A DNA stretch of 29,865 nucleotides from an uncultured Candidatus Saccharibacteria bacterium (GTDB lineage Bacteria; Patescibacteriota; Saccharimonadia; Saccharimonadales; AWTP1-31), in contig CAZKKJ010000002.1 of the NCBI GenBank assembly GCA_964553355.1, forward strand, positions 1 to 29,865. The letters run 5' to 3'. The notes beneath the pieces were generated by a model. That model saw nothing but the letters and a program-made list of their open reading frames with translations, ran no database searches and was not told the origin of the DNA. This document shows, piece after piece, positions 906 through 11,884 of this stretch. A program made the position numbers and the translations under genes. Position 1 is the first letter of the stretch. Every line of letters begins with the position of its first letter.

Positions 906-1397
906 TTAGCTTAAAAGTTTGTTTACTCGTCGTGTGCTGGTAAACAACATCGCTAAGACCGCTACAGTGATGCCTGCAATGGTACTGTCAAGTTCGAGTA
1001 AGACTACCAAAGGAATAACTAGCCCAGCCGTAGTAATTGGCAAGCCAATAAGAAAGCCTTTGGTCTGATTCCGGTTGATGTTGTGGCGTGCGAGCCGTAG
1101 AGCACCGGTAACAGGTAGCAAAACGGCTAGTAGCGATAACCAAGTGGTGTCGTAAAAGGTCGTGACTAGCACCATAGGTGCCACGCCAAAGGTTACCAGG
1201 TCTGCCAGGCTGTCCATTTCGGCCCCAAAGTCAGACTCGACTCCCATACGGCGTGCAACCCAGCCATCGATGGCGTCAAAGAACATGCCCGCAATAATTA
1301 GCACGGCTGCCTGCCAAAAGTTGCCGTGTATTGCCGCATAAATGGCCAATAACCCCGAAACTAAATTAAGACAGGTAATATAGTCGGGCAGTTTCAT
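906..1397 (-). CDS. pssA: CDP-diacylglycerol--serine O-phosphatidyltransferase (CDP-alcohol phosphotransferase class I)
   Basis: DAIDGWVARRMG..SDFGAEMDSLADLVTFGVAP motif, LRLARHN, multiple TM segments, adjacent to psd. Start moved to ATG 1397 (MKLPDYIT), 7 nt after the psd stop. Confidence 0.85.
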   Translation of the reverse strand: MKLPDYITCLNLVSGLLAIYAAIHGNFWQAAVLIIAGMFFDAIDGWVARRMGVESDFGAEMDSLADLVTFGVAPMVLVTTFYDTTWLSLLAVLLPVTGALRLARHNINRNQTKGFLIGLPITTAGLVIPLVVLLELDSTIAGITVAVLAMLFTSTRRVNKLLS

Positions 1398-1404
1398 GAT
1401 TTTT

Positions 1405-2034
1405 CTAATTGATTTCTGCAAGAATAGTCTCCCCGGCAACGGTGCGGTCGCCCTTTTTAACTTTTAGCGTAACAGATTTTGGAATAATCATAGTCACTTG
1501 GGACCCAAGATTGATCAGCCCAACTTCTTGCCCAGCAGTCACCGCGTCGCCCGGTGAAACGTTGGTAATCACGCGTCGAGCCAAAAAACCAGCGATCTGA
1601 ATCATCTTTACTGTCACTTTTCCCTTAATAATGGTTTCTGCCTTCTCGTTTACTAGACCGGCCTCAAAGGTGTTGACGGCCAAGAACTTTCCAGCGCTGT
1701 GCACCACGCTTTCTACGGTTCCACTTATGGGCGCACGATTAATATGTACGTCTAGCGGCGACATAAAGACCGAAATAATATAACCCTCTTTTGCAACATC
1801 GCGGGTTAAGGTGTTAACAATACCTAAAAGACGCTTGGTGCCTTTGAATAACTGTACTTGGTCGCCCTTGAACTCTAACAATTCAACAATTTTACCATCC
1901 GCTGGCGCGATGATAAGATTATCACCGGTAGGTGTTGTGCGGGCTGGGTTACGCAAAAAATAGACTTTCCAAAATACTAATAAGAGCACAAAAAGTACAG
2001 CTATGATAACTAGTGCGTAAGTGATAATTATCAC
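1405..2034 (-). CDS. psd: Phosphatidylserine decarboxylase proenzyme (short type)
   Basis: N-terminal TM, IAPADG, FMSPLDVHINRAP, QIAGFLARR and LGS self-cleavage motif (LINLGSQV). GTG start. Confidence 0.9.
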   Translation of the reverse strand: MIIITYALVIIAVLFVLLLVFWKVYFLRNPARTTPTGDNLIIAPADGKIVELLEFKGDQVQLFKGTKRLLGIVNTLTRDVAKEGYIISVFMSPLDVHINRAPISGTVESVVHSAGKFLAVNTFEAGLVNEKAETIIKGKVTVKMIQIAGFLARRVITNVSPGDAVTAGQEVGLINLGSQVTMIIPKSVTLKVKKGDRTVAGETILAEIN

Positions 2035-2041
2035 AGTAAAC

Positions 2042-2449
2042 CTATTGAACGACTATTCGTGTAGCCACGGTATCTTTGCCGACTACTTTGGTAAATAAGA
2101 TTGACTTGGATCCTACGGTTACATCGCTTGCTTTTACATTTCCCTTGGCATTAGTGATGCGTGTTTCTTTGGTAATTATGGCAGACTTAGATACGTCGCC
2201 CTGGAGTTTAACTACCACTTCAGAATCGCTAATCTTGCTAATCTCCCCAGTTGCAGGTAGGCCCTTAACAAGTGAGTTTCCTGAATCTTTTTTGTTTGTA
2301 CTCGTGTCATCATCCTTACCGTTGTTGTAGCCAAATTGATACACACCCAGCGCGATGAGAGTTACCACAAGTAGGACTACGAGAACAATTATCCTGGGCA
2401 AACGAAGTTTGCGCACTGGATTAGGTGATTGCTTAATTTCTTCCTGCAT
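2042..2449 (-). CDS. Single-pass membrane protein with small beta-rich (DUF5666-like) outer domain
   Basis: Basic N-terminus, strong TM (IIVLVVLLVVTLIALGVY), then GEISKIS...T.I...V.VG...ATRIVV, which resembles DUF5666 repeats. Confidence 0.6.
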   Translation of the reverse strand: MQEEIKQSPNPVRKLRLPRIIVLVVLLVVTLIALGVYQFGYNNGKDDDTSTNKKDSGNSLVKGLPATGEISKISDSEVVVKLQGDVSKSAIITKETRITNAKGNVKASDVTVGSKSILFTKVVGKDTVATRIVVQ

Positions 2450-2501: not shown

Positions 2502-2530
2502 TTTAGAACTTGAAGCTATAGTGCTATTAT
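2502..2530 (+). promoter_or_regulatory. Sigma70-type promoter for the giant kinase gene
   Basis: TTTAGA-N17-TATTAT with an extended -10 TG motif (TGCTATTAT). Confidence 0.5.
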
Positions 2531-2563: not shown

Positions 2564-5500
2564 GTGAAGTCAAAAAGAGTGGTAAATTTATCGATGCCGG
2601 ACCGTATAGCCAGGCAGCCTAAGCATATTAGGAGTATGTTGGCTGTATTTGGTGTTGTGACCGTCGGTGTTTTTGTGTACTACTTGGCTTCGCTGTTACC
2701 GATGTTTAGTTCTGCCGCAAGTCCTACGCTAACAACCGGCGGTGCATCAAATATCGGACGCACCACTGTCAAGCTTACAGGGGACACGACTTCCAATGGC
2801 GGGAGCGAAGTCACCGAGTGGGGTTTCCAGTATGGTACTACCACTGGATATGGCACAACTGCTTCAGAAACACAAAAGCCCTACGCATTTGCTAGCAAGA
2901 TCGGTGGACTAGGCACGAACGATGGTGAGTTTACAAATCCATATGGCGTTGCTTTCGACAGTACCGGCAATATGTATGTGGTGGACGCAACAAACAACCG
3001 TATACAGAAGTTCGATAGTAATGGGAACTTTATTACTAAGTGGGGTTCTAGTGGTAGTGGTGACGGCCAATTCAGTGGCGCTTACCATATAGCCCTCGAT
3101 AGCTCAGATAACGTATTCGTGGTTGATATGTACAACGCACGTGTTCAGAAATTTAACAGCAGTGGAACATTCATTAGCAAGTTTGGGACACAAGGTTCTG
3201 GAGACGGCCAGTTCAGTAGCCCAAGCGGAATTGTCATAGATAGTTCAAATAATATCTACGTCGCCGACAGATCAAACCAGCGTATCCAAAAATTCAACAG
3301 TAGCGGTGTATTTATCACCAAGTGGGGGTCATTGGGCGATGCCGATGGACAATTCCGTAATCCAACTTCACTTGCTTTGGACGGAAGCGGCAATATATAC
3401 ATTGGAGCGACCAGGATAATCCATAAGTACACAACTAGTGGAGTATTTGTTACAAAATGGGGAAGTGCCGGTACTGGCAATGGTCAATTCAACGGCGTCC
3501 ACGATTTAAAAGTAGATGGCTCGGGTAATATTGTTGCACTGGACGGATTTAATTACCGAGTACAGATATTCGACAGTAGCGGTACCTACCTAAGTCAGTG
3601 GGGTGAACGCGGCGACAATGACGGCCAGTTCCAAATTCCTTATGGTCTGGCGATTCGCAATAACGACATATACATAGCCGACAACTCTGACCGTGTACAA
3701 AAGTTTAGCCCGTACTCGCAGGCTGGCACCTATACGATAAGCATTACGGGGTTAACCTGTGGCACTACCTATCACTACCGAGCATTCGCAACGAATATAG
3801 ACGGTACCAGTTATGGTGACGATGCAACATTCGACACATTTGGCTGTGCGCCAGTTCTGGACATTTCTACCAGTTATTCTCAAGACATCACACAGTACGA
3901 TGCACGAGTCCGGGCCACTATAAACGAGGGTAGTAGCATAGCTACATCCAAGGGCTTTCAGTATGGCACTACCACCAGCTATGGCCAAACTAAATCAGTA
4001 CCCGTGCAAGAAGAGTATAAATACAAATCCTCGATTGGCAGTGTCGGCACGGGAGATGGACAGTTCCAGCAAGCCCGCAATTTTGCCTTTGACTCAGCCG
4101 GAAATATGTATGTGGCTGACACCTACAATGACCGTATCCAAGTATTTAACCCAGCCGGTAGTTACGTTAGTCAGTGGGGAGTTTCGGGTTCTGGCCCGGG
4201 TCAATTAACCGAGCCAGCGCACATTGCCATTGGGCCAGATAACACTGTGTATATAGCGTATGGATCTGCTTCCGAAAAGGTTCAGCGCTTTACAGTTAAT
4301 GGGACATACCTTGGAGCCTGGGGCACATTTGGTTCGGGTAATGGAGAATTTAGTGACATTGGCTATATAGCCGTAGATTCTACCGGTAACGTATATGTAG
4401 CAGATCTTGGCAACTATCGCATCCAGAAGTTTACAAGTACAGGTTCGTTTATAACCAAATGGGGCAGTTTTGGTTCTGGTGATGGCCAGTTTACGCAAGT
4501 TAAAGGAATTGATTTTGACTCATCAGACAACGTTTATGTTTTGGACTACAATACACCTAGAGTCCAAAAATTTAACAGCAGTGGAACATTCATTAGTAAG
4601 TTTGGTAGCCTGGGATCAGGGGATGGTCAGTTCTCTTTTCCTGCGGACATTACAATTGACGATCAGAACAATATATTTGTATTAGACGCTGGCAATCGAC
4701 GTGTCGTTAAGTTTGATCCTAGCGGCAATTATATAACTAAATTTTCTCGAGATGGTGCGAGCACAGGTGAGCTTGAGCTGTCTACGGCCATTGGAGTAAA
4801 AGCTGACGGTGTGGTATATGTTGCAGACACAGCAAAAAGTAAAATCATATCCTTTGAGACAGTTAATCAAGATACCCCATTCTTCTTGCCAATAAGTGGG
4901 CTTACTTGCAATACGACTTATCACTATCGAGCTTTCTTGGCCAATGGCACCGACACAGATTACGGTATTGATAATACGTTTACCACTGATGCTTGTCCTA
5001 CGGCTCCGGGTGTTACCACAAACATTAGTACTGGCTTGACCCAGACTACCGCTACATTAAACGGACGAATCGACAGTCTAAAAAGTACCGTGTCCAGTCG
5101 TGGCTTTAGGTTTGGTACAACCGATAGTTATGGTCAAACATTCCCAGAGGCAGTTACGCATAATATTAACTACACCAGCGTATTGCAGACTAGCGACATG
5201 CAGTCTCCATCTGACAACTTCCCACGAGACATTGCCAGAGACTTAGCTGGAAATATGTATGTTATAGAGTGGGGAGGGGGTAACCCTCAAGTTGAAAAAT
5301 TCGACAGTAACGGTAACTTTATTACAAAGTGGGGGAGTTACGGTACAGGTGATGGTCAATTTAGTCTCCCCGATAGTATAGAAGTAGACGCAGCTAATCG
5401 GGTGTATGTAGCTGACGCGGTAAATGGGAATATTCAAAAGTTTGACAGTAACGGCAATTTCATATCCAAGTGGGGCACTATAGGCTCTGGCATGGGAGAG

Positions 5501-8500
5501 TTTGGACGCCATGGTCTAATTGATATGCGGCTTGCTATTGACTCACAGTACAATATTTATGTTTCAGAACTTGGCTCAACTCCTAATGATGGAACACCAA
5601 TCCACCGAGTACAGAAGTTTACGAATACTGGTACGTACTTGGGCCAGTGGGGAGGCATCGGTACTGGGAACGGCACCCTGACATTAAATTCTGCAGCTGA
5701 TATTGCGATTGATGACGATGACTATGTTTACATTGTTGACGATAATGGCACCAACCCTGTAGTAAAGAAGTTTGATGTTGATGGAAATTACATTACAGAG
5801 TGGGGTTCTGTAGGTAGTGCCGATGGACAATTTGGCGAGACCAGCAATGTGCGATACATAGACATTGATTCTAATAATGACGTTTTTGTCGCGGAGATCT
5901 CTGGTCCCAACCGAGTGCAAAAGTTTGACCGTTATGGAAACTTCTTGACTAAGTTTGGCTCATCTGGCTCAGGTAATGGCCAGCTGAATTGGCCAAGTGG
6001 CATGATATTTAAGAACGATAGTACCATTGTTGTTAGTGATCACTTGAATAACAGGCTGCAGTTGTTTAACTACGAAACTGTTAGTGATTCGTTTACTAAG
6101 AACCTGACTGGCTTAACCTGCGGCACCACCTACCATTACCAGGCGTATGCGACCAACGGAGTAGGAACCGAATATGGCAGCGACCAAACCTTTACTACCG
6201 ACGCGTGTCCACAACAGACCGATTTTGCACTCGAGAAAACTATGACCAATGCTGTTCCAGTTAACTCTGGTGATGATGTAAATTACCACTTCAAGATTAC
6301 AAATGTAGGGGCAAGTAGCGCATCATACAGCGGTCAGTTTACCGATGTGCTGCCTGCCGAATTTACTCTTAATAACGATTACTTCGATACGCTTAACAAC
6401 GCTCAGGTTAGTTGTGTGGACGGTGGCTTGGCAGAAGAAAGTGGCGATGCTTATCTTGCCGGTCAATATGCAGGTCATCATGTCGTGGGTTGTAATATCG
6501 ATGCAGGGTTGGACGAGCTTGCACCAGGTGAATTTATAGAGTTTGACCTAAGTGGTGCCGCCAATGCCAACTACACCAACGCGAGCACTAAAAACCGATC
6601 GTTGTACTACACATCTCTTGATAACGAAGACGATGTGCTAACCGATGTAGAGAATGCAATTGCTGCCAATCAGGATATGTTCGAACTTGCGACGAACAAC
6701 GTTAGCACCCACACGTATAGTTTTGTTGCCAATACCGCCCCAGTTGTTGCAATTGTTAACCCAGACGAAGATCAACAGTTCAATCAAGGAGAGGTAATTA
6801 ATCTGGCAGCCGAAGCGAGTGACTCGGATGGAACAATTACAGAAGTAGAGTTCTATCTGAACAGTCAACTTGTAGGTAGTGTTAGCTCTCAGCCGTACGA
6901 AATTCAGGCCAGTGGTTTGGCTCCTGGTGTATACACCGTAGTAGCGCGGGCAATTGACAATGACGGTGCAGCTACTAGTTCTGCGGTAGTCAACTTTACG
7001 GTAGTTGCAGTTGACCCTTCTGTTACAACCGTTTCTGCAACGAGCGTAAACAAAACCAGTGCAATCTTGAACGGCGATGTGACGGTTATAGGCAGCACGC
7101 CTCTCACGCAACGTGGTTTTCAGTACGGCACAACCACTTCCTATGGCTCAACCGTTGGTAATGCGACTAGCCAAACTGGCGCGTACAGTGTCTCGGTCTC
7201 TGGATTAACCTGTGGCACTACCTATCATTACCGAGCAATCGCTACTAATACTTCCGGAACGGGATATGGCGTAGATAAGACCTTCACGACGTCTGTTTGC
7301 CCAGCTCCGCCAACGGTAGTTATTACTGCGCCAACAAATAATCAAGTATTTGGAGCCAAAACTACCAGTGTTAGCCTGGCAGCCGTAGCAACCTCGCTAA
7401 CGAGCGAGATAGCTCGAGTTGAGTTCTTTGTTGATGGAGCATACGTGGGTACAGTTGTAGATTCTCCGTATACCATGGACGCTCTTGGCTTGAGTGTAGG
7501 GCAGCATATCCTAGAAACCAAGGCCTACGATGTTCTTGGAGCCACTGCAGAAGCCGTACCGGTACCGTTCTACGTTGCACCACCAACCGGAAATCCAGCA
7601 GTTGATAACCCGCCAACAACTCCGCCCGTAACTACACCCCCTGCAGCTACGCCTACTGTTCCGACAGATGCTAACAATACTTCTGGAGAGGGTATTAAGC
7701 TAGAGAAAAAGGATGGCTTTAGCCGAACTAACGTGGCCGGTCGTACGTGGGTTGATGCGGTCTTTGCTCATAAAGTCTTTAGCGTTGTCCCATGGATCCT
7801 CATCTTGTTACTTCTCATTCTTGCAGCCGCATATGCCTATCGAGCACGCAGAGAGTACGTGCTCCGTAAGCAAATCATTCAGACGCTTGGTCGCTACCAG
7901 AAGACATTAGATGCCACTGATAACTACCTGGCATTAACTGCTCACCACCTTAATACACCTCTGGCTATTATGAATGGTTCTGCAGAACTGGTGGTCGCTA
8001 AAAAAGCCTTACCAACATCAGTTACAACTCATGCTCAGGCTAAGCTCAAAGACTTCTCTATAGCTATAGGCCAAGTTTTGTCGGCCAACCAGGTGTCCGA
8101 GGCCGAGCTTAAGCGCGACCAGCAACAGGCAACCGCTCACGATATCCAACCTCGATCCAAAAATCCTCTAAAAGATAGAGCAGTGTGGCTGCCCATGGTT
8201 GTTGTCTTTGGTTGTCTTGTGTTGGCAAACCTATTGTTTATCCGAGTTGGAGTGCTGAGTAATGGGTGGGTGCGCATGCTTATCGAGTTCGGATTGTTCG
8301 TCCTTACCTGTGTACTGCTTGTCCTGTCCTATATGTACCACAACAAAGCAGAGGCCTTTAAGCTACTTAGCCAGCAGCAGCTGGCTGCACAGGGCAGATT
8401 GATGACTCGTCGCAGACAGTTCATTGCTGACGCTCACCAGACTCTTAACAAACATCTCGAAGATCTTAAACTATCCGGCGCACGATTTGCCGAAGTAGAA

Positions 8501-9103
8501 CAAGGCAAACTCTACCAAAATGGTCTGGCTATGTTGCAGGAACTGGTCGGGGGCATGAATCTGATATATAACACTACAAATATGACCTCCCAGGCACCAT
8601 TATTAGCGGTTGGCCCTATACTAGAACAAAACATCAAGAACCTCGAATCATTTGCACAAAGTAAGCACGTCCAACTGTCTAACTCGTCACAGCCAAACAT
8701 GAGCGTTCACGTACCTGCCGAAGCCCTTAGTCAGCTACTTCATTCAACAATTCATAATGCAATCAAGTTCAGTAAAGAGAATGGCCTGGTTAAGATTGCT
8801 GGCACGCGACGTGGCAAGAAGCTAATTATGACGGTTACCGATACTGGCGTTGGAATTTCAAAGGACAAGCTCGACAAACTCTTCCAACCGTTTACAAGAG
8901 CAACCGACACCGAAACATTCGACTACGATGGCCTGGGCTTGAACTTGTACATCAACAAGGTTATTCTGGCTCGCCTAGGGGGCGACATCCACATCAAGAG
9001 CACAAGCAACAAGGGAACCAAGGTCACCGTTACGCTACCCGAGGCAAACAAGGACGAATCATTAGTTGCCCCTGCCATGATTTTCCCCACAGTCTCTTCC
9101 TAG
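2564..9103 (+). CDS. Giant surface protein: signal/TM, 3x (FN3-like domain with inserted NHL propeller), DUF11-like, Ig-like x2, FN3, Pro/Thr linker, 3 TMs, two His-box-like helices, HATPase_c domain
   Basis: About 18 NHL repeats (P.GIA.DS.GN.YV.D..N.RIQKF...G.FI.KWG..G.GDGQF). FN3-like GFQYGTTT.YG and GLTCGTTYHYRA.ATN motifs. AHHLNTPL His box, HNAIKF N box, DTGVG G1 box, LFQPF F box, GLGL G2 box. Confidence 0.9.
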   Translation: MKSKRVVNLSMPDRIARQPKHIRSMLAVFGVVTVGVFVYYLASLLPMFSSAASPTLTTGGASNIGRTTVKLTGDTTSNGGSEVTEWGFQYGTTTGYGTTASETQKPYAFASKIGGLGTNDGEFTNPYGVAFDSTGNMYVVDATNNRIQKFDSNGNFITKWGSSGSGDGQFSGAYHIALDSSDNVFVVDMYNARVQKFNSSGTFISKFGTQGSGDGQFSSPSGIVIDSSNNIYVADRSNQRIQKFNSSGVFITKWGSLGDADGQFRNPTSLALDGSGNIYIGATRIIHKYTTSGVFVTKWGSAGTGNGQFNGVHDLKVDGSGNIVALDGFNYRVQIFDSSGTYLSQWGERGDNDGQFQIPYGLAIRNNDIYIADNSDRVQKFSPYSQAGTYTISITGLTCGTTYHYRAFATNIDGTSYGDDATFDTFGCAPVLDISTSYSQDITQYDARVRATINEGSSIATSKGFQYGTTTSYGQTKSVPVQEEYKYKSSIGSVGTGDGQFQQARNFAFDSAGNMYVADTYNDRIQVFNPAGSYVSQWGVSGSGPGQLTEPAHIAIGPDNTVYIAYGSASEKVQRFTVNGTYLGAWGTFGSGNGEFSDIGYIAVDSTGNVYVADLGNYRIQKFTSTGSFITKWGSFGSGDGQFTQVKGIDFDSSDNVYVLDYNTPRVQKFNSSGTFISKFGSLGSGDGQFSFPADITIDDQNNIFVLDAGNRRVVKFDPSGNYITKFSRDGASTGELELSTAIGVKADGVVYVADTAKSKIISFETVNQDTPFFLPISGLTCNTTYHYRAFLANGTDTDYGIDNTFTTDACPTAPGVTTNISTGLTQTTATLNGRIDSLKSTVSSRGFRFGTTDSYGQTFPEAVTHNINYTSVLQTSDMQSPSDNFPRDIARDLAGNMYVIEWGGGNPQVEKFDSNGNFITKWGSYGTGDGQFSLPDSIEVDAANRVYVADAVNGNIQKFDSNGNFISKWGTIGSGMGEFGRHGLIDMRLAIDSQYNIYVSELGSTPNDGTPIHRVQKFTNTGTYLGQWGGIGTGNGTLTLNSAADIAIDDDDYVYIVDDNGTNPVVKKFDVDGNYITEWGSVGSADGQFGETSNVRYIDIDSNNDVFVAEISGPNRVQKFDRYGNFLTKFGSSGSGNGQLNWPSGMIFKNDSTIVVSDHLNNRLQLFNYETVSDSFTKNLTGLTCGTTYHYQAYATNGVGTEYGSDQTFTTDACPQQTDFALEKTMTNAVPVNSGDDVNYHFKITNVGASSASYSGQFTDVLPAEFTLNNDYFDTLNNAQVSCVDGGLAEESGDAYLAGQYAGHHVVGCNIDAGLDELAPGEFIEFDLSGAANANYTNASTKNRSLYYTSLDNEDDVLTDVENAIAANQDMFELATNNVSTHTYSFVANTAPVVAIVNPDEDQQFNQGEVINLAAEASDSDGTITEVEFYLNSQLVGSVSSQPYEIQASGLAPGVYTVVARAIDNDGAATSSAVVNFTVVAVDPSVTTVSATSVNKTSAILNGDVTVIGSTPLTQRGFQYGTTTSYGSTVGNATSQTGAYSVSVSGLTCGTTYHYRAIATNTSGTGYGVDKTFTTSVCPAPPTVVITAPTNNQVFGAKTTSVSLAAVATSLTSEIARVEFFVDGAYVGTVVDSPYTMDALGLSVGQHILETKAYDVLGATAEAVPVPFYVAPPTGNPAVDNPPTTPPVTTPPAATPTVPTDANNTSGEGIKLEKKDGFSRTNVAGRTWVDAVFAHKVFSVVPWILILLLLILAAAYAYRARREYVLRKQIIQTLGRYQKTLDATDNYLALTAHHLNTPLAIMNGSAELVVAKKALPTSVTTHAQAKLKDFSIAIGQVLSANQVSEAELKRDQQQATAHDIQPRSKNPLKDRAVWLPMVVVFGCLVLANLLFIRVGVLSNGWVRMLIEFGLFVLTCVLLVLSYMYHNKAEAFKLLSQQQLAAQGRLMTRRRQFIADAHQTLNKHLEDLKLSGARFAEVEQGKLYQNGLAMLQELVGGMNLIYNTTNMTSQAPLLAVGPILEQNIKNLESFAQSKHVQLSNSSQPNMSVHVPAEALSQLLHSTIHNAIKFSKENGLVKIAGTRRGKKLIMTVTDTGVGISKDKLDKLFQPFTRATDTETFDYDGLGLNLYINKVILARLGGDIHIKSTSNKGTKVTVTLPEANKDESLVAPAMIFPTVSS
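3149..4596 (+). repeat. Identical 29-nt segment in propellers 1 and 2 (3149-3177 and 4568-4596)
   Basis: AAATTTAACAGCAGTGGAACATTCATTAG occurs at both positions. Confidence 0.9.
3752..7237 (+). repeat. Near-identical 33-nt segment in two FN3-like domains (3752-3784 and 7205-7237)
   Basis: TTAACCTGTGGCACTACCTATCA[C/T]TACCGAGCA, 32/33 identical. Confidence 0.85.
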
Positions 9104-9137
9104 CTTGCAGATACCTGTATGACAATAAGTTTAGTTA

Positions 9138-9166
9138 TTGACAAGCATTAACGTAAATGATATTAT
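9138..9166 (+). promoter_or_regulatory. Sigma70 promoter
   Basis: TTGACA-N17-TATTAT. Confidence 0.75.
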
Positions 9167-9186
9167 TATAGCTTCGTGTTTGAGGC

Positions 9187-9228
9187 AAATTACCCTCCTC
9201 TATTCAAAATATGGGGTAATTTTTATTT
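9187..9228 (+). terminator. Terminator-like hairpin within the leader of the 108-aa gene
   Basis: AAATTACCC (9187-95) pairs with GGGTAATTT (9214-22), followed by TTATTT. Confidence 0.5.
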
Positions 9229-9256
9229 CTACAGAAAGTAACCAGAAGGGAGAGCC

Positions 9257-9583
9257 ATGACAAACGAAGTATCAGGAGAACAACTACGTAGAGACGCTGC
9301 CCGTCGCGGTTTTGTTATGGCCGCAGTCTCTATCGGTAGTCGAATATTACCGGATAGTATTACAACACCTCTGGGTCGTATGAACCCACTCGCCGTTGAC
9401 CGCCATAACCGTAATCAACAAGCAGCGGTTGAACAGCGTATCGAAGGTCTAAAAATAATGCTCGAGGCAGCTGAAGCTTTAGGCGAGATTGCCCCAGTTG
9501 CAGAAGCCCCTCGAGACGTTAGTCGTGTAGATGCTGCACTCATTGTTGATCACACGGCTCCAGACATTAAGTCTTGGGACTAG
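9257..9583 (+). CDS. Hypothetical protein (108 aa)
   Basis: Purine-rich SD (GAAGGGAGAG), upstream promoter, plausible composition. No recognised family. Confidence 0.6.
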   Translation: MTNEVSGEQLRRDAARRGFVMAAVSIGSRILPDSITTPLGRMNPLAVDRHNRNQQAAVEQRIEGLKIMLEAAEALGEIAPVAEAPRDVSRVDAALIVDHTAPDIKSWD

Positions 9584-9635
9584 TCACTACTGCTTTGAGC
9601 CGCGACCTCTTTACCGTATAATTACCATCTGTAAT

Positions 9636-9709
9636 GGCGCCTTGGCCGAGTGGTTAGGCAGAGCTCTGCAAAAGCTCGTACACCGGTTCGAATCCGGTAG
9701 GTGCCTCCA
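9636..9709 (+). tRNA. tRNA-Cys(GCA)
   Basis: Cloverleaf: GGCGCCT/AGGTGCC acceptor stem, GAGCT-CTGCAAA-AGCTC anticodon arm, TTCGAAT T loop, U73 discriminator, encoded CCA. Confidence 0.97.
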
Positions 9710-10152
9710 TTACGACTTATACCAGTTGAACTGATTCGCAGTATGTTTCTTGTGGCAGTTAGCGCAAAGTATCCTGCACTTGGCAATTTCTGCGAGTGTT
9801 GCTTCCCAGGAGTATCCATCCCTAAGGGCAGTAGCAATGCCAAATGATTTCAGACTAGGGTCAAGATGATCAAATTCCAAAACTCGATTATCTGACTCTG
9901 CACATTGCACACATTGTTTATCAGATAGATATTCAATCATTTTTAATCGAAATTGACGTTTATATTCTTTTTGTCTTAATCTTGCCCTTTGTCGGTAGCT
10001 GTCTCTTTGCAACTCATAGTGATGCCTATATGTCCGAATCCTTTGTGTCTTGTAGCATGTCTTGCATGTGTGTGCAGACGGCCAGAAGTGCTATCTTTAA
10101 TATAGTAATCACCCTCTGGCTTTTCATGATTGCATTTACTACAGACCCTCAT
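9710..10152 (-). pseudogene. HNH endonuclease with N-terminal Cys zinc finger, frameshifted at about 10066-10074
   Basis: MRVCSKC...RLHT in one frame continues as CKTCYKTQRIRTYRHHYELQRD... in another. The C-terminus has CVQC..LEFDH...CRILCANCH. The shift falls at a (CA)4 tract. Confidence 0.85.
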
Positions 10153-10238
10153 ACGTGAATTATACATCCATGTCGGGATGGGTGCACGAACATTAATGGG
10201 GTGGGAATGTTATTTACTAAATGTTAAGATGGCAAGAT

Positions 10239-10325
10239 GCGCGGGTGTTGGAATTGGTAGACAAGTTTGACTTAAAATCAAATGCCTTTACGGGCGTGCG
10301 GGTTCGATTCCCGCCCCGCGCACCA
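10239..10325 (+). tRNA. tRNA-Leu(TAA)
   Basis: GCGCGGG/CCCGCGC acceptor stem, TTTGA-CTTAAAA-TCAAA anticodon arm, long variable arm, A73, encoded CCA. Confidence 0.97.
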
Positions 10326-10343
10326 GCGTGAACCCCAAATAAT

Positions 10344-10366
10344 AACTGCCGCAAGGCAGTTTTTTT
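10344..10366 (+). terminator. Intrinsic terminator after tRNA-Leu
   Basis: AACTGCC-GCAA-GGCAGTT followed by a T run. Confidence 0.85.
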
Positions 10367-10425
10367 GACCCTTAAAAAGTGCTATAATTAAAGAGTAATC
10401 AATTGAAATTATAGGGGAGTAGAAG

Positions 10426-10986
10426 ATGCCACTAATTATTGTTCTTGCGGTTCTAGCTGTAATCGTTATTGCAGGTGTTGCCATGTATAACGGTTTGGTT
10501 CGTGCCAATGTCCGCGTAGATGAGGCTTGGAGCGACATTACCGTACAGCTTAAACGTCGTGCCGATCTCATACCTAATCTCGTCCAGACAGTTAAAGGTT
10601 ATGCCAAGCACGAAAAAGAAGTATTCGAAAATGTTACCAAAGCTCGTGCAGCAATCCTTGGCGCTCAGGGCGTAGAAGAAACCGCAGCTGCAGACAACCA
10701 GTTTACAGGAGCCCTAAAGAGCTTGTTTGCCGTAGCAGAGGCGTATCCTCAGCTAAGAGCAAGCGAGAACTTTACTCAGCTTCAGGCTGAATTAACTGAC
10801 ACTGAAGATAAGGTTCAGGCTGCCCGCCGTTTTTATAATGGTTCGGCTCGCGATCTTAACATCAAGGTGCAGACTTTTCCGACCAACATCTTTGCCAACA
10901 TGCTGGGCTTTAAGAAGCGTGCATTCTACGAACTAGACGAAGCCGAGAACGCTGCAGTCCAAAACCCAACCAAAGTAGAATTCTAA
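10426..10986 (+). CDS. lemA: LemA family protein
   Basis: N-terminal TM, YNGLV...VDEAWSDITVQLKRRADLIPNLV..VKGYA.HE, LFAVAEAYPQL, RRFYN, FPTNIFA. Confidence 0.95.
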   Translation: MPLIIVLAVLAVIVIAGVAMYNGLVRANVRVDEAWSDITVQLKRRADLIPNLVQTVKGYAKHEKEVFENVTKARAAILGAQGVEETAAADNQFTGALKSLFAVAEAYPQLRASENFTQLQAELTDTEDKVQAARRFYNGSARDLNIKVQTFPTNIFANMLGFKKRAFYELDEAENAAVQNPTKVEF

Positions 10987-10999
10987 ATAATTCCCGACG

Positions 11000-11884
11000 A
11001 TGTATGACCAAATAGCCTCCAATAAGCGCAAGAGCGCCGTCATTATGATAGGCTTTGCTGCCTTTGCTTCGGCAATCGCCTATATCGCTGGCAGCTATGC
11101 AGTCAATCGGAGTTTTGCACCGTATGCCATTGCGGCGGCCCTAATCTATGTGGTTATTTCGTACTATGCCGGTAGCAAAATGGCCCTCGCCCTGAATGGT
11201 GCCAAAGAAGTCACCAAGAAAGACGAGCCTCGTTTGTATCGCACCGTAGAAAACCTAGCGATTACCAACGGCATGCCCATGCCAAAGGTCTATGTTATGG
11301 AAGATCCCGCTCTAAATGCGTTTGCGACGGGCCGCGATCCAAATCACTCAGTAGTTTGTGCTACACGCGGGCTGTTAGATGCTATGACCGATACCGAACT
11401 AGAGGGAGTAATGGCCCACGAGCTTGGACATGTGCAGAACTACGATATACGAGTTAGCCTTTTAGCATTTGCCTTGGCGTCTGTAATTGGCATCATTAGT
11501 GACATGGTCTTGCGTATGTGGTTCTGGGGTGGCAGCAATGACGATGATGGGCCGGCTAGTAATCCAGTATTTATGGCCATTGGTGTGCTAGCCATTATCT
11601 TGTCGCCAATTGTGGCAGCTTTAATCCAGACAGCTATCTCTCGCAAACGAGAGTATTTGGCCGATGCAACCGGTGCGCTAACAACACGCTATCCAGAAGG
11701 ACTGGCTAGTGCACTTGAAAAGATCGCCGCAGCAGGAAGTGTGGTTAAAAAGCAAAATACTAGCACGGCACACTTATTCTTCGCTAATCCCCTCAAAGGC
11801 AAATCAATATCAAATTTGTTTAGCACACATCCACCAGTACAAGATCGAATCAAACGCCTTCGGCACATGGGAAATGTAGGCTAG
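11000..11884 (+). CDS. htpX: M48 zinc metalloprotease HtpX
   Basis: LNAFATGR, AHELGH (HExxH), SRKREYLADA, LFSTHPP..DRI; follows lemA. Confidence 0.93.
   Translation: MYDQIASNKRKSAVIMIGFAAFASAIAYIAGSYAVNRSFAPYAIAAALIYVVISYYAGSKMALALNGAKEVTKKDEPRLYRTVENLAITNGMPMPKVYVMEDPALNAFATGRDPNHSVVCATRGLLDAMTDTELEGVMAHELGHVQNYDIRVSLLAFALASVIGIISDMVLRMWFWGGSNDDDGPASNPVFMAIGVLAIILSPIVAALIQTAISRKREYLADATGALTTRYPEGLASALEKIAAAGSVVKKQNTSTAHLFFANPLKGKSISNLFSTHPPVQDRIKRLRHMGNVG

What the first reader, a model, noticed from the sequence alone, without database searches (positions are those of the whole stretch)
2564..9103. Giant orphan adhesin-histidine-kinase fusion: candidate contact/host-sensing receptor
Seen: about 1700 aa of extracellular adhesin-type modules (3 NHL propellers, FN3-like, DUF11-like, Ig-like, Pro/Thr stalk) are joined across the membrane to His-box and HATPase_c motifs in one ORF, and no response regulator is in the window. 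Established: two-component sensors normally have small input domains, and CPR/Saccharibacteria are reduced epibionts that depend on attachment to host cells. Inference: a long-reach receptor that couples surface binding to intracellular phosphosignalling, possibly a family in which different ectodomains are swapped onto a conserved kinase tail.
Basis: partly seen in the sequence, partly recalled or inferred. Interest (0 to 1): 0.9.

Follow-up and report, generated by a model that had tools for sequence, protein, structure and literature searches.

The report
Giant surface-receptor histidine kinase, split core
A tiny Saccharibacteria-type bacterium from wastewater encodes one intact 2,179-residue membrane protein that joins a huge adhesin-like outer part to an unusually wired histidine kinase; it belongs to a large family I could not find described, which may let these cells sense what their surface touches.

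Summary
Window 2564-9103 (+) is one uninterrupted 2,179-codon ORF.

- **Outer part (about 1,690 aa):** three NHL beta-propellers, each inserted into an FN3-like module, then Ig (Big_7) domains and a Pro/Thr stalk.
- **Tail (about 440 aa):** TM1, a HisKA-type hairpin with H1794, a two-helix membrane hairpin, a second DHp-like hairpin without the conserved His, and an intact HATPase_c domain.
- **Not a chimera:** independently assembled contigs from three runs of two studies bridge the ectodomain/kinase junction, and about 240 database representatives share the architecture.
- **Family:** the tail was found in 59 of 401 sampled genomes of the class, and in all four other genomes of the same family, at 2-4 copies each. 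It sits on ectodomains of about 30 to over 6,000 aa (NHL, FN3, DUF285/BspA, DUF11, unknown).
- **Orphan status:** no response regulator is linked here or in four of five relatives checked. Seven REC domains lie elsewhere in the genome.
- **Departures from canonical kinases:** the His hairpin is separated from the ATPase, and the kinase-specific acid next to the His is always aromatic.

Host or contact sensing remains inference. This scan has already noted the same family on other DNA, in at least 21 genomes. I class it as a new variant of a known kind, of moderate to high interest.

The parts
2502..2530 (+). Promoter-like site (TTTAGA-17-TATTAT with TG) just upstream of the gene. This is a consensus match only.
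2564..9103 (+). Whole ORF of 2,179 codons (GTG start; alternative ATG at 2594 is used by the database gene call)
2636..2707 (+). N-terminal hydrophobic segment (res 25-48), a signal anchor or uncleaved signal peptide. It has 7 K/R before it and none after.
2753..3847 (+). Unit 1: FN3-like module (res 64-100 + 385-428) with NHL six-bladed propeller 1 (about res 105-384) inserted in a loop
3929..5014 (+). Unit 2: FN3-like module (456-476 + 775-817) with NHL propeller 2 inserted
5036..6211 (+). Unit 3: FN3-like module (825-859 + 1176-1216) with NHL propeller 3 inserted
6212..6733 (+). Region res 1217-1390 of uncertain fold, with a sub-threshold DUF11-type repeat at 1225-1272
   Evidence: E 2e-4, below cut-off; no Pfam hit
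6740..6943 (+). Big_7 bacterial Ig domain 1 (res 1393-1460)
7046..7318 (+). Fourth FN3-like module, contiguous with no propeller insert (res 1495-1585)
7316..7576 (+). Big_7 Ig domain 2 (about res 1585-1671)
   Evidence: two Big_7 stretches; boundaries from the sequence
7577..7678 (+). Pro/Thr-rich stalk (res 1672-1705), inferred to span the cell wall
7775..7840 (+). TM1 (res 1738-1759), modelled as one continuous helix with the H-box helix
7832..8134 (+). First cytoplasmic helical hairpin, the HisKA-type DHp. It carries the conserved H-box; H1794 is at nt 7943-7945.
8180..8338 (+). Membrane hairpin TM2 (1873-1895) and TM3 (1902-1925) with a 6-residue outer loop
8339..8581 (+). Second hairpin with a DHp fold but without a conserved His. 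H1958 is peculiar to this protein.
8600..9046 (+). Catalytic ATP-binding domain (HATPase_c) with N box (N2065), G1 (D2093xGxG), F box and G2 (G2123xG) all conserved

Best explanation
This is an intact, orphan, membrane-spanning receptor of the histidine-kinase class. It belongs to a family specific to Saccharimonadia and, patchily, other Patescibacteria. The family shares a conserved tail of about 430 aa carried on highly variable ectodomains.

**Proposed mechanism (inferred unless marked shown)**
- A Pro/Thr stalk holds the 1,690-aa ectodomain (three NHL propellers plus FN3/Ig modules) beyond the wall, where it binds a macromolecular ligand.
- Binding or pulling moves TM1, which is one continuous helix with the H-box helix (shown only in the model).
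- This changes how the His-bearing HisKA hairpin (H1794) packs against the second, His-less DHp hairpin that carries the ATPase domain.
- The two hairpins form an intramolecular four-helix bundle, a single-chain mimic of the usual kinase dimer. The ATPase phosphorylates H1794 'in trans-like' geometry, or the hairpin acts mainly as a phosphatase or phosphotransfer surface.
- The signal then passes to an unlinked receiver protein.

**Shown:** the architecture, the topology signals, the conservation of H1794 and of all ATP-binding motifs, the family spread, and the lack of a linked regulator.
For: - **ORF and domains:**
- **Junction continuity:** contigs from runs X1, X2 and X3 (two studies) cover 7395-8392, 6744-8000 and 7235-8002 with no mismatches.
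- **Family size:** 240 representatives at E<=1e-30. In nearly all of the 150 listed, the whole tail matches at the extreme C-terminus. Total lengths run from about 420 to 4,413 aa.
- **Ectodomain variety:** NHL, FN3, DUF285, DUF11, cadherin/PKD or no Pfam hit.
- **Spread:** 59 of 401 class genomes, 41 of 187 genera, all four other genomes of the same family (2-4 copies each), with ORFs of 373-6,781 aa. Only six of 401 genomes in the phylum-wide sample had it.
- **Conservation in 144 tails:** H1794 in 141, T at H+4 in 135 (S in 9), P in 140, N2065 in 144, and the G1 and G2 glycines in at least 139.
- **HisKA placement:** the Pfam model hits 20 of 30 members; in the five checked, and weakly in P0001, the hit lies on the first hairpin.
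- **Structure:** AF2 model pLDDT 78, pTM 0.73. The second hairpin plus CA superposes on DHp-CA of ZraS, HK853, WalK, CpxA, DivL and RetS.
- **Split-chain fold:** hairpin 1 against hairpin 2 plus CA scored ipSAE 0.56 against a best control of 0.00. The tool's verdict was 'weak support'. The interface covers both helices of both hairpins and the ATP-lid region 2109-2137.
- **Topology:**
- **Receivers:** seven REC domains lie elsewhere in the genome.
Against: - The residue after the phospho-acceptor His is Tyr, His or Phe in 141 of 144 members and never Asp or Glu. In HisKA kinases that acid is specifically required for autokinase activity, while the retained Thr at H+4 is the phosphatase residue (PMC3510030). 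Canonical autophosphorylation is therefore doubtful.
- The His hairpin is not contiguous with the ATPase.
- The complex score is in the range the tool calls weak, and it may only echo known kinase dimers.
- No partner regulator was identified.
- No ligand is known.
- No RNA run was listed as holding the gene.
- Natural short forms with ectodomains of about 30-250 aa exist, two of them in this genome. The tail therefore does not need a giant sensor.
Confidence: 0.6

Rival explanations
1. The protein is chiefly a phosphatase or pseudokinase-type scaffold. The ATPase domain binds nucleotide as a regulatory switch. The HisKA hairpin, with its Thr retained but its catalytic acid lost, dephosphorylates or sequesters a receiver protein that another kinase phosphorylates. 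The ectodomain controls that activity.
For: H+1 is never acidic, while T/S at H+4 is kept in 144 of 144 members. PMC3510030 assigns the acid to kinase activity and the Thr/Asn to phosphatase activity. The hairpin joined to the ATPase has lost its His, as in DivL and RetS, which are among the fold matches. The genome has about ten HATPase_c ORFs against seven REC domains, so cross-regulation is plausible.
Against: All ATP-binding and lid motifs (N, G1, F, G2) are almost invariant across 144 divergent members, and so is the His itself. That pattern is what selection for phosphoryl transfer from ATP to His would give. HisKA_2/HWE kinases are active with a non-acidic H+1 (my own knowledge, not tested here).
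Confidence: 0.2
2. The protein is primarily a surface adhesin or S-layer-like structural protein. The conserved tail serves mainly as a polytopic membrane anchor, and its signalling role is vestigial.
For: The ectodomain modules (NHL, FN3, Big_7, DUF285/BspA) are typical of binding proteins. NCBI names relatives only as '6-bladed beta-propeller' or 'BspA family leucine-rich repeat surface protein'. There is no LPXTG signal, so the tail is the only anchor.
Against: An anchor would not keep every catalytic motif of a GHKL ATPase and an H-box invariant over hundreds of diverged copies. Tail-only forms with almost no ectodomain persist, including two in this genome.
Confidence: 0.1
3. The ORF is an assembly chimera or mis-join that links an adhesin gene to a separate small kinase gene.
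For: The genome is a fragmented metagenome bin of 98 contigs. The gene contains diverged internal repeats.
Against: Logan contigs from three runs of two studies cross the stalk, TM1, the H-box and TM2-3 with no mismatches, and no joints were reported. The same architecture recurs in hundreds of independent assemblies, including single-contig genomes.
Confidence: 0.02

Closest known systems
Class I (HisKA-type) transmembrane sensor histidine kinases, e.g. Thermotoga HK853, ZraS, WalK, CpxA, EnvZ
   Same: HATPase_c domain with N/G1/F/G2 boxes. DHp-CA fold (Foldseek E about 1e-11, about 230 aligned columns). An H-box of HisKA type (F-L-x-x-x-S-H-x-L-x-T-P). An extracytoplasmic input domain between membrane segments.
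   Different: The His-bearing hairpin is separated from the ATPase by a two-helix membrane hairpin and a second, His-less DHp hairpin. H+1 is Tyr rather than Glu or Asp. The ectodomain is about 1,690 aa of adhesin-like modules, where typical sensors have roughly 100-300 aa (my own knowledge). No regulator is linked.
Bacteroides hybrid two-component systems (e.g. BT4663-type, double beta-propeller plus Y_Y_Y periplasmic sensor)
   Same: A large beta-propeller ectodomain is wired to a histidine kinase, showing that big propeller sensors on kinases have precedent. Such proteins appear among the weaker hits (PF07494/PF07495).
   Different: They use Reg_prop/Y_Y_Y propellers rather than NHL. They have a canonical contiguous HisKA-HATPase_c and carry fused REC and AraC output domains. 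Their tails match only the last 25-40% of this tail.
Mycobacterium tuberculosis PknD (NHL beta-propeller sensor on a transmembrane kinase)
   Same: An extracellular six-bladed NHL propeller joined through a single TM helix to a cytoplasmic kinase. The sensor (1rwi) matches at E 4.8e-17.
   Different: PknD is a Hanks-type Ser/Thr kinase with one propeller. This protein has three propellers, each nested in an FN3-like module, on a histidine-kinase core.
Histidine-kinase-like proteins with a degenerate phospho-acceptor site (DivL, RetS)
   Same: The hairpin attached to the ATPase lacks the conserved His. DivL (4q20) and RetS (6dk7) are among the fold matches.
   Different: Here a second, upstream hairpin in the same chain supplies a conserved His.

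Membership tests
HisKA-type sensor histidine kinase (two-component system) | HATPase_c catalytic domain with N, G1, F and G2 boxes | tested here: met
   Pfam PF02518 E 1.8e-20. N2065 is kept in 144 of 144, D2093 in 139, G2095 in 144, G2123 in 139 and G2125 in 142.
HisKA-type sensor histidine kinase (two-component system) | DHp/HisKA domain with a conserved phospho-acceptor His in an H-box | tested here: met
   H1794 is kept in 141 of 144 members. The HisKA model hits 20 of 30 members, on the first hairpin in those checked, with the best at 30.3 bits above the cut-off. In P0001 itself the hit is only E 0.043.
HisKA-type sensor histidine kinase (two-component system) | The His-bearing DHp hairpin lies directly N-terminal to the CA domain | tested here: not met
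   TM2, TM3 and a second DHp-like hairpin (res 1873-2006) lie between H1794 and the CA domain.
HisKA-type sensor histidine kinase (two-component system) | Acidic residue at H+1 (kinase) and Thr/Asn at H+4 (phosphatase), as defined in PMC3510030 | tested here: not met
   H+1 is Y in 132, H in 6 and F in 3 members, never D or E. H+4 is T in 135 and S in 9, so only that half of the motif is met.
HisKA-type sensor histidine kinase (two-component system) | ATP-dependent autophosphorylation and transfer to a receiver domain | not testable with these tools
   This needs biochemistry. Seven REC domains exist in the genome, but none is linked.
HisKA-type sensor histidine kinase (two-component system) | Four-helix bundle formed by two DHp hairpins | tested here: inconclusive
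   The split-chain fold packs hairpin 1 against hairpin 2 with ipSAE 0.56 against controls at 0.00. The tool rates this 'weak support' and warns it may come from memory of known dimers. Homodimerisation was not tested.
Bacteroides-type hybrid two-component system | Reg_prop/Y_Y_Y periplasmic sensor plus fused REC and HTH_AraC output domains | tested here: not met
   No PF07494, REC or AraC domain was found. Y_Y_Y scored only E 0.0038, below its cut-off.
PknD-like NHL receptor Ser/Thr kinase | NHL propeller ectodomain plus a Hanks-type kinase domain | tested here: not met
   The propeller is present (1rwi E 4.8e-17). No Pkinase domain was found, and the cytoplasmic part is HisKA/HATPase_c.
Wall-anchored Gram-positive adhesins (sortase substrates) | C-terminal LPXTG sorting signal; demonstrated binding to a surface | tested here: not met
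   There is no C-terminal LPXTG, only an internal LPISG at residue 775. Binding cannot be tested here.

The most novel reading that the evidence does not exclude
These proteins are a CPR-specific class of long-reach contact or mechano-receptors built on a single-chain 'pseudo-dimeric' histidine-kinase core. TM1 feeds force or ligand-induced motion straight into the His-bearing hairpin. A membrane hairpin tethers a second, His-less hairpin that presents the ATPase to that His. Paralogues with swapped ectodomains let an epibiont distinguish host surfaces and switch pili, attachment or growth through unlinked single-domain receivers.
Probability: 0.3. Interest if true: 0.85.

Novelty: new variant of a known kind. 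Interest (0 to 1): 0.62.

Why it matters
Cultivated Saccharibacteria live attached to host bacteria. In the papers I searched and read (PMC10633639 among them) I found no description of how they sense a host. CPR genomes generally carry few histidine kinases: 0.29 per 100 genes in one survey (PMC10805038). This 733-kb genome nevertheless spends 6.5 kb on one kinase and keeps two shorter paralogues, and its relatives keep two to four copies with different giant ectodomains.

If the family signals, it is a concrete and genetically testable candidate for surface or host sensing in ultrasmall epibionts. The core wiring would also be a new way to build a histidine kinase: a HisKA hairpin, a membrane hairpin, a His-less DHp and the ATPase in one chain. 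H-box searches confined to the region just upstream of the ATPase (for example -130 to -30 aa in 10.64898/2026.02.27.708494) would miss a His about 260 aa upstream. NCBI names for relatives ('6-bladed beta-propeller', 'BspA family ... surface protein') do not mention the kinase.

Tried and rejected
- **Chimeric assembly:** rejected.
- **H1958 (FIADAHQTL) as phospho-acceptor:** rejected, because it is not conserved.
- **Pfam HisKA on P0001 alone:** not significant (E 0.043). The assignment rests on family members.
- **Pfam DUF11 at 1217-1390:** no hit, and BLAST against a DUF11-bearing relative was not significant. Only a sub-threshold TIGR01451 match was found.
- **Linked response regulator:** none on the contig. 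None lies near the family genes in G726, G763, G439 or G516. One convergent 146-aa REC gene follows the G484 relative, which is too little to name a partner.
- **Synteny with same-family genomes:** their giants (FN3 type) share only the tail with P0001.
- **Ectodomain clustering by BLAST single linkage:** uninformative, because shared Ig/FN3 modules merge nearly everything.
- **jackhmmer class labels:** noisy. P0144, for example, was labelled NHL although Pfam finds only Big_7. The count of at least 50 class changes on the tail tree is therefore indicative only.
- **Expression:** no RNA run was listed.
- **Literature:** searches for a description of the fusion or of tandem DHp cores found nothing relevant.

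Full report

Window 2564-9103 (+) is a single open frame of 2,179 codons. It is the longest ORF in the window by far. The public gene call for the same DNA starts ten codons later and gives 2,169 aa.

Pfam finds NHL repeats and a six-bladed propeller (E 3e-48 and 7e-40), two Big_7 Ig domains and a C-terminal HATPase_c domain at residues 2053-2161 (E 2e-20). NCBIfam aligns the last 150-200 residues with many named sensor kinases, all far below their equivalog cut-offs. Against solved structures, the propellers match TRIM-NHL domains and the NHL sensor of the mycobacterial kinase PknD (1rwi, E 4.8e-17). The Ig domains match bacterial Ig/FN3-like modules of glycoside hydrolases.

A 90-residue Cys-pair module occurs once intact, at 1495-1585. 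It occurs three more times split in two, around propeller inserts of about 285-320 residues: 64-100 + 385-428, 456-476 + 775-817 and 825-859 + 1176-1216. The three propellers are therefore nested inside FN3-like modules. 'DUF11-like' rests only on a sub-threshold TIGR01451 hit at 1225-1272.

Hydropathy gives four membrane segments: 25-48, 1738-1759, 1873-1895 and 1902-1925. The charge distribution fits N-in, 1,689 residues outside, a 113-residue cytoplasmic loop, a 6-residue outer loop and a 254-residue cytoplasmic C-terminus. The ten ectodomain cysteines form five regularly spaced pairs, and the cytoplasmic parts have none. A Pro/Thr stalk at 1672-1705 precedes TM1. There is no LPXTG signal.

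**2. Is it an assembly artefact?**

No. The DNA is present in wastewater and sludge metagenomes. Separately assembled contigs from three runs of two studies cover 7395-8392, 6744-8000 and 7235-8002 with no mismatch, and no joints were reported. They cross the stalk, TM1, the H-box and the membrane hairpin. The internal DNA repeats are only about 65% alike. The same architecture recurs in hundreds of independent assemblies (section 4).

**3. The kinase tail is not canonical.**

I aligned 12, 30 and then 144 relatives. One His is conserved: H1794, kept in 141 of 144, in the motif (F/Y)-L-x-(I/L)-x-(S/T)-H-Y-L-(N/R)-T-P. It lies about 35 residues after TM1.

This is a HisKA H-box. The Pfam HisKA model hits 20 of 30 members. 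In the five relatives whose coordinates I checked, and weakly in P0001 itself, the hit lies on this first hairpin, and one of them scores above the curated cut-off. In P0001 alone the match is only E 0.043.

An AlphaFold2 model of the tail (pLDDT 78, pTM 0.73) shows the following elements in order:
- TM1 continuous with the H-box helix;
- a return helix;
- TM2;
- TM3 continuous with another long helix;
- a short return helix;
- an alpha/beta domain.

Foldseek aligns about 230 columns, the full length of the matched DHp-CA chains, which I take to be the second hairpin plus the alpha/beta domain. The targets are the DHp-CA units of ZraS, HK853, WalK, CpxA, DivL and RetS (E about 1e-11).

The order is therefore: HisKA hairpin with His, then a membrane hairpin, then a His-less DHp hairpin, then the CA domain. 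All ATP-binding motifs are nearly invariant (N2065 in 144 of 144; G1, F and G2 boxes).

Two features depart from HisKA kinases:
- The phospho-acceptor hairpin is not the one attached to the ATPase.
- The residue after the His is Tyr, His or Phe and never acidic, while Thr or Ser at H+4 is kept. Willett and Kirby showed that the acid is required specifically for kinase activity and the Thr/Asn for phosphatase activity (PMC3510030).

I folded the two cytoplasmic pieces as separate chains. The result packs hairpin 1 (1775-1852) against both helices of hairpin 2 (1939-2006) and against the ATP-lid region (2109-2137). The ipSAE was 0.56, against 0.00 for three controls. The tool rates this 'weak support' and warns that resemblance to solved kinase dimers can produce such scores. 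I read it as compatible with an intramolecular four-helix bundle in which hairpin 1 takes the place of the partner protomer. It is not proof.

**4. It is one member of a large family.**

A phmmer search of the tail against 1.84 billion representatives gave 240 proteins at E<=1e-30. In nearly all of the 150 listed, tail positions about 20-440 match at the extreme C-terminus. Total lengths range from about 420 to 4,413 residues.

The ectodomains carry NHL, FN3, DUF285/BspA, DUF11, cadherin/PKD, Big_7 alone, or nothing Pfam recognises. Named members are 'Candidatus Saccharibacteria bacterium'. NCBI annotates them only as '6-bladed beta-propeller' or 'BspA family leucine-rich repeat surface protein', and JGI as 'streptogramin lyase/signal transduction histidine kinase'.

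I used a profile of the family-specific part of the tail, without the ATPase. The full module was found as follows:

| Sample | Genomes with the module |
|---|---|
| Class-wide sample | 59 of 401 (41 of 187 genera) |
| Other genomes of the window's own family | 4 of 4, with 2-4 copies each |
| The largest family of the order | 7 of 168 |
| Phylum-wide sample | 6 of 401 |

ORFs carrying the module run from 373 to 6,781 residues. One relative has four copies within 35 kb.

On a tree of 144 tails, my rough ectodomain classes need at least 50 changes. The minimum possible is 7 and the shuffled mean is 93. The labels are noisy, so this shows only that ectodomains are clustered yet often exchanged, gained or lost.

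The closest tail, P0144 at 47% identity, sits on an ectodomain of only 440 residues. A relative in another family (G484, 2,104 aa) shares the NHL ectodomain at 40% identity over 776 residues, but its tail profile score is much weaker (E 2.6e-45).

**5. This genome.**

The bin is 733 kb in 98 contigs and 83% complete. LigA relatives at 72-73% identity are named Candidatus Saccharimonadales or Saccharibacteria.

It has seven REC domains, none on this contig, and eleven HATPase_c matches. Four kinase-regulator pairs are adjacent (C7, C14, C21, C62).

Two short paralogues of the tail exist:
- A 461-residue one lies on C7, divergent from an OmpR-type regulator-kinase operon.
- One of about 500 residues is split over the ends of contigs C49 and C41.

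The split paralogue lies between LepA and HrcA. In three same-family genomes, the MurJ-LepA ... HrcA locus holds FN3-type giants of 2,137-2,280 residues.

The neighbours of the giant gene are the psd-pssA pair, LemA, an M48 peptidase and LigA. None is a signalling gene. A promoter-like site precedes the gene, and a strong one follows it before the next ORF. The gene is therefore probably monocistronic.

In four of five relatives checked, no REC gene lies near any family member. In G484 a 146-residue receiver gene lies convergent just downstream.

**6. Interpretation.**

The best-supported reading is a membrane receptor of the histidine-kinase class. Its variable outer part binds some macromolecular ligand, and its conserved tail signals to an unlinked receiver.

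What is shown is the architecture, the conservation and the distribution. Adhesion, host contact, autophosphorylation and the partner are all inferred.

The missing acid at H+1 and the split core keep open a reading as mainly a phosphatase or scaffold. The short natural forms show that the tail can exist without a large sensor.

**7. Novelty.**

Full-text searches found no description of such fusions or of a tandem DHp core with an intervening membrane hairpin. This is a limited library, so it does not prove the family is undescribed.

Large propeller sensors on kinases have precedent in the Bacteroides hybrid two-component systems and in PknD. The kind is therefore known, and the wiring and scale are the variant.

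Earlier agents of this scan reached the same reading of the same family on other DNA, in at least 21 genomes. That is not independent evidence, and I scored only on what I tested here.

Noticed in passing
window 2753-6211: Each of the three NHL propellers is inserted into a loop of a Cys-pair FN3-like module. An uninterrupted copy of that module lies at 7046-7318. The nested arrangement is repeated three times in tandem.
   Followed up: yes
G000 contigs C49:3-749 (-) and C41:3-825 (+): A short paralogue of the kinase tail (about 500 aa, with almost no ectodomain) is split over two contig ends; the overlapping peptide is SLYLLAVLLLALAYRYR. It lies between LepA and HrcA. Three same-family genomes hold FN3-type giants of 2,137-2,280 aa at that locus. 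Part of C41 reads as masked N.
   Followed up: partly
G000 contig C7:11172-12554 (-): A second short paralogue (461 aa, 26% identity over the whole tail) lies divergent from an OmpR-type response regulator (231 aa) plus kinase (335 aa) operon at C7:12531-14224.
   Followed up: partly
L053/L054 (G726:C12:192000-230000): Four family members with different ectodomains (open frames of 1,270, 2,311, 1,496 and 1,725 aa) are clustered within about 35 kb of one relative's genome.
   Followed up: partly
L055 (G484:C1:24000-37000), 3637-9948 (+) and 10096-10533 (-): A 2,104-aa relative shares the NHL ectodomain (40% identity over 776 aa) but has a more divergent tail. A convergent 146-aa single-domain receiver gene follows it directly. 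This was the only kinase-receiver adjacency seen in five genomes.
   Followed up: partly
window 2342-2436: One run's contig (X1) differs at 17 positions within 95 bases, inside the upstream minus-strand ORF 2042-2449, which has no Pfam hit. The giant gene itself shows almost no variants. This probably reflects a co-occurring strain.
   Followed up: no
window 906-2034 (-): An adjacent CDP-alcohol phosphatidyltransferase (pssA-like) and phosphatidylserine decarboxylase are confirmed by Pfam. This is a head-group pathway in a reduced CPR-type genome.
   Followed up: partly
window 10426-11884 (+): A LemA family protein is followed directly by an M48 (HtpX-like) peptidase, both membrane-associated, downstream of the giant gene.
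   Followed up: no
whole genome G000: The 733-kb genome has about ten HATPase_c-bearing ORFs, roughly one per 75 kb. That looks high against the CPR average of 0.29 kinases per 100 genes reported in PMC10805038. I did not check whether some of these are GyrB- or MutL-type ATPases.
   Followed up: no
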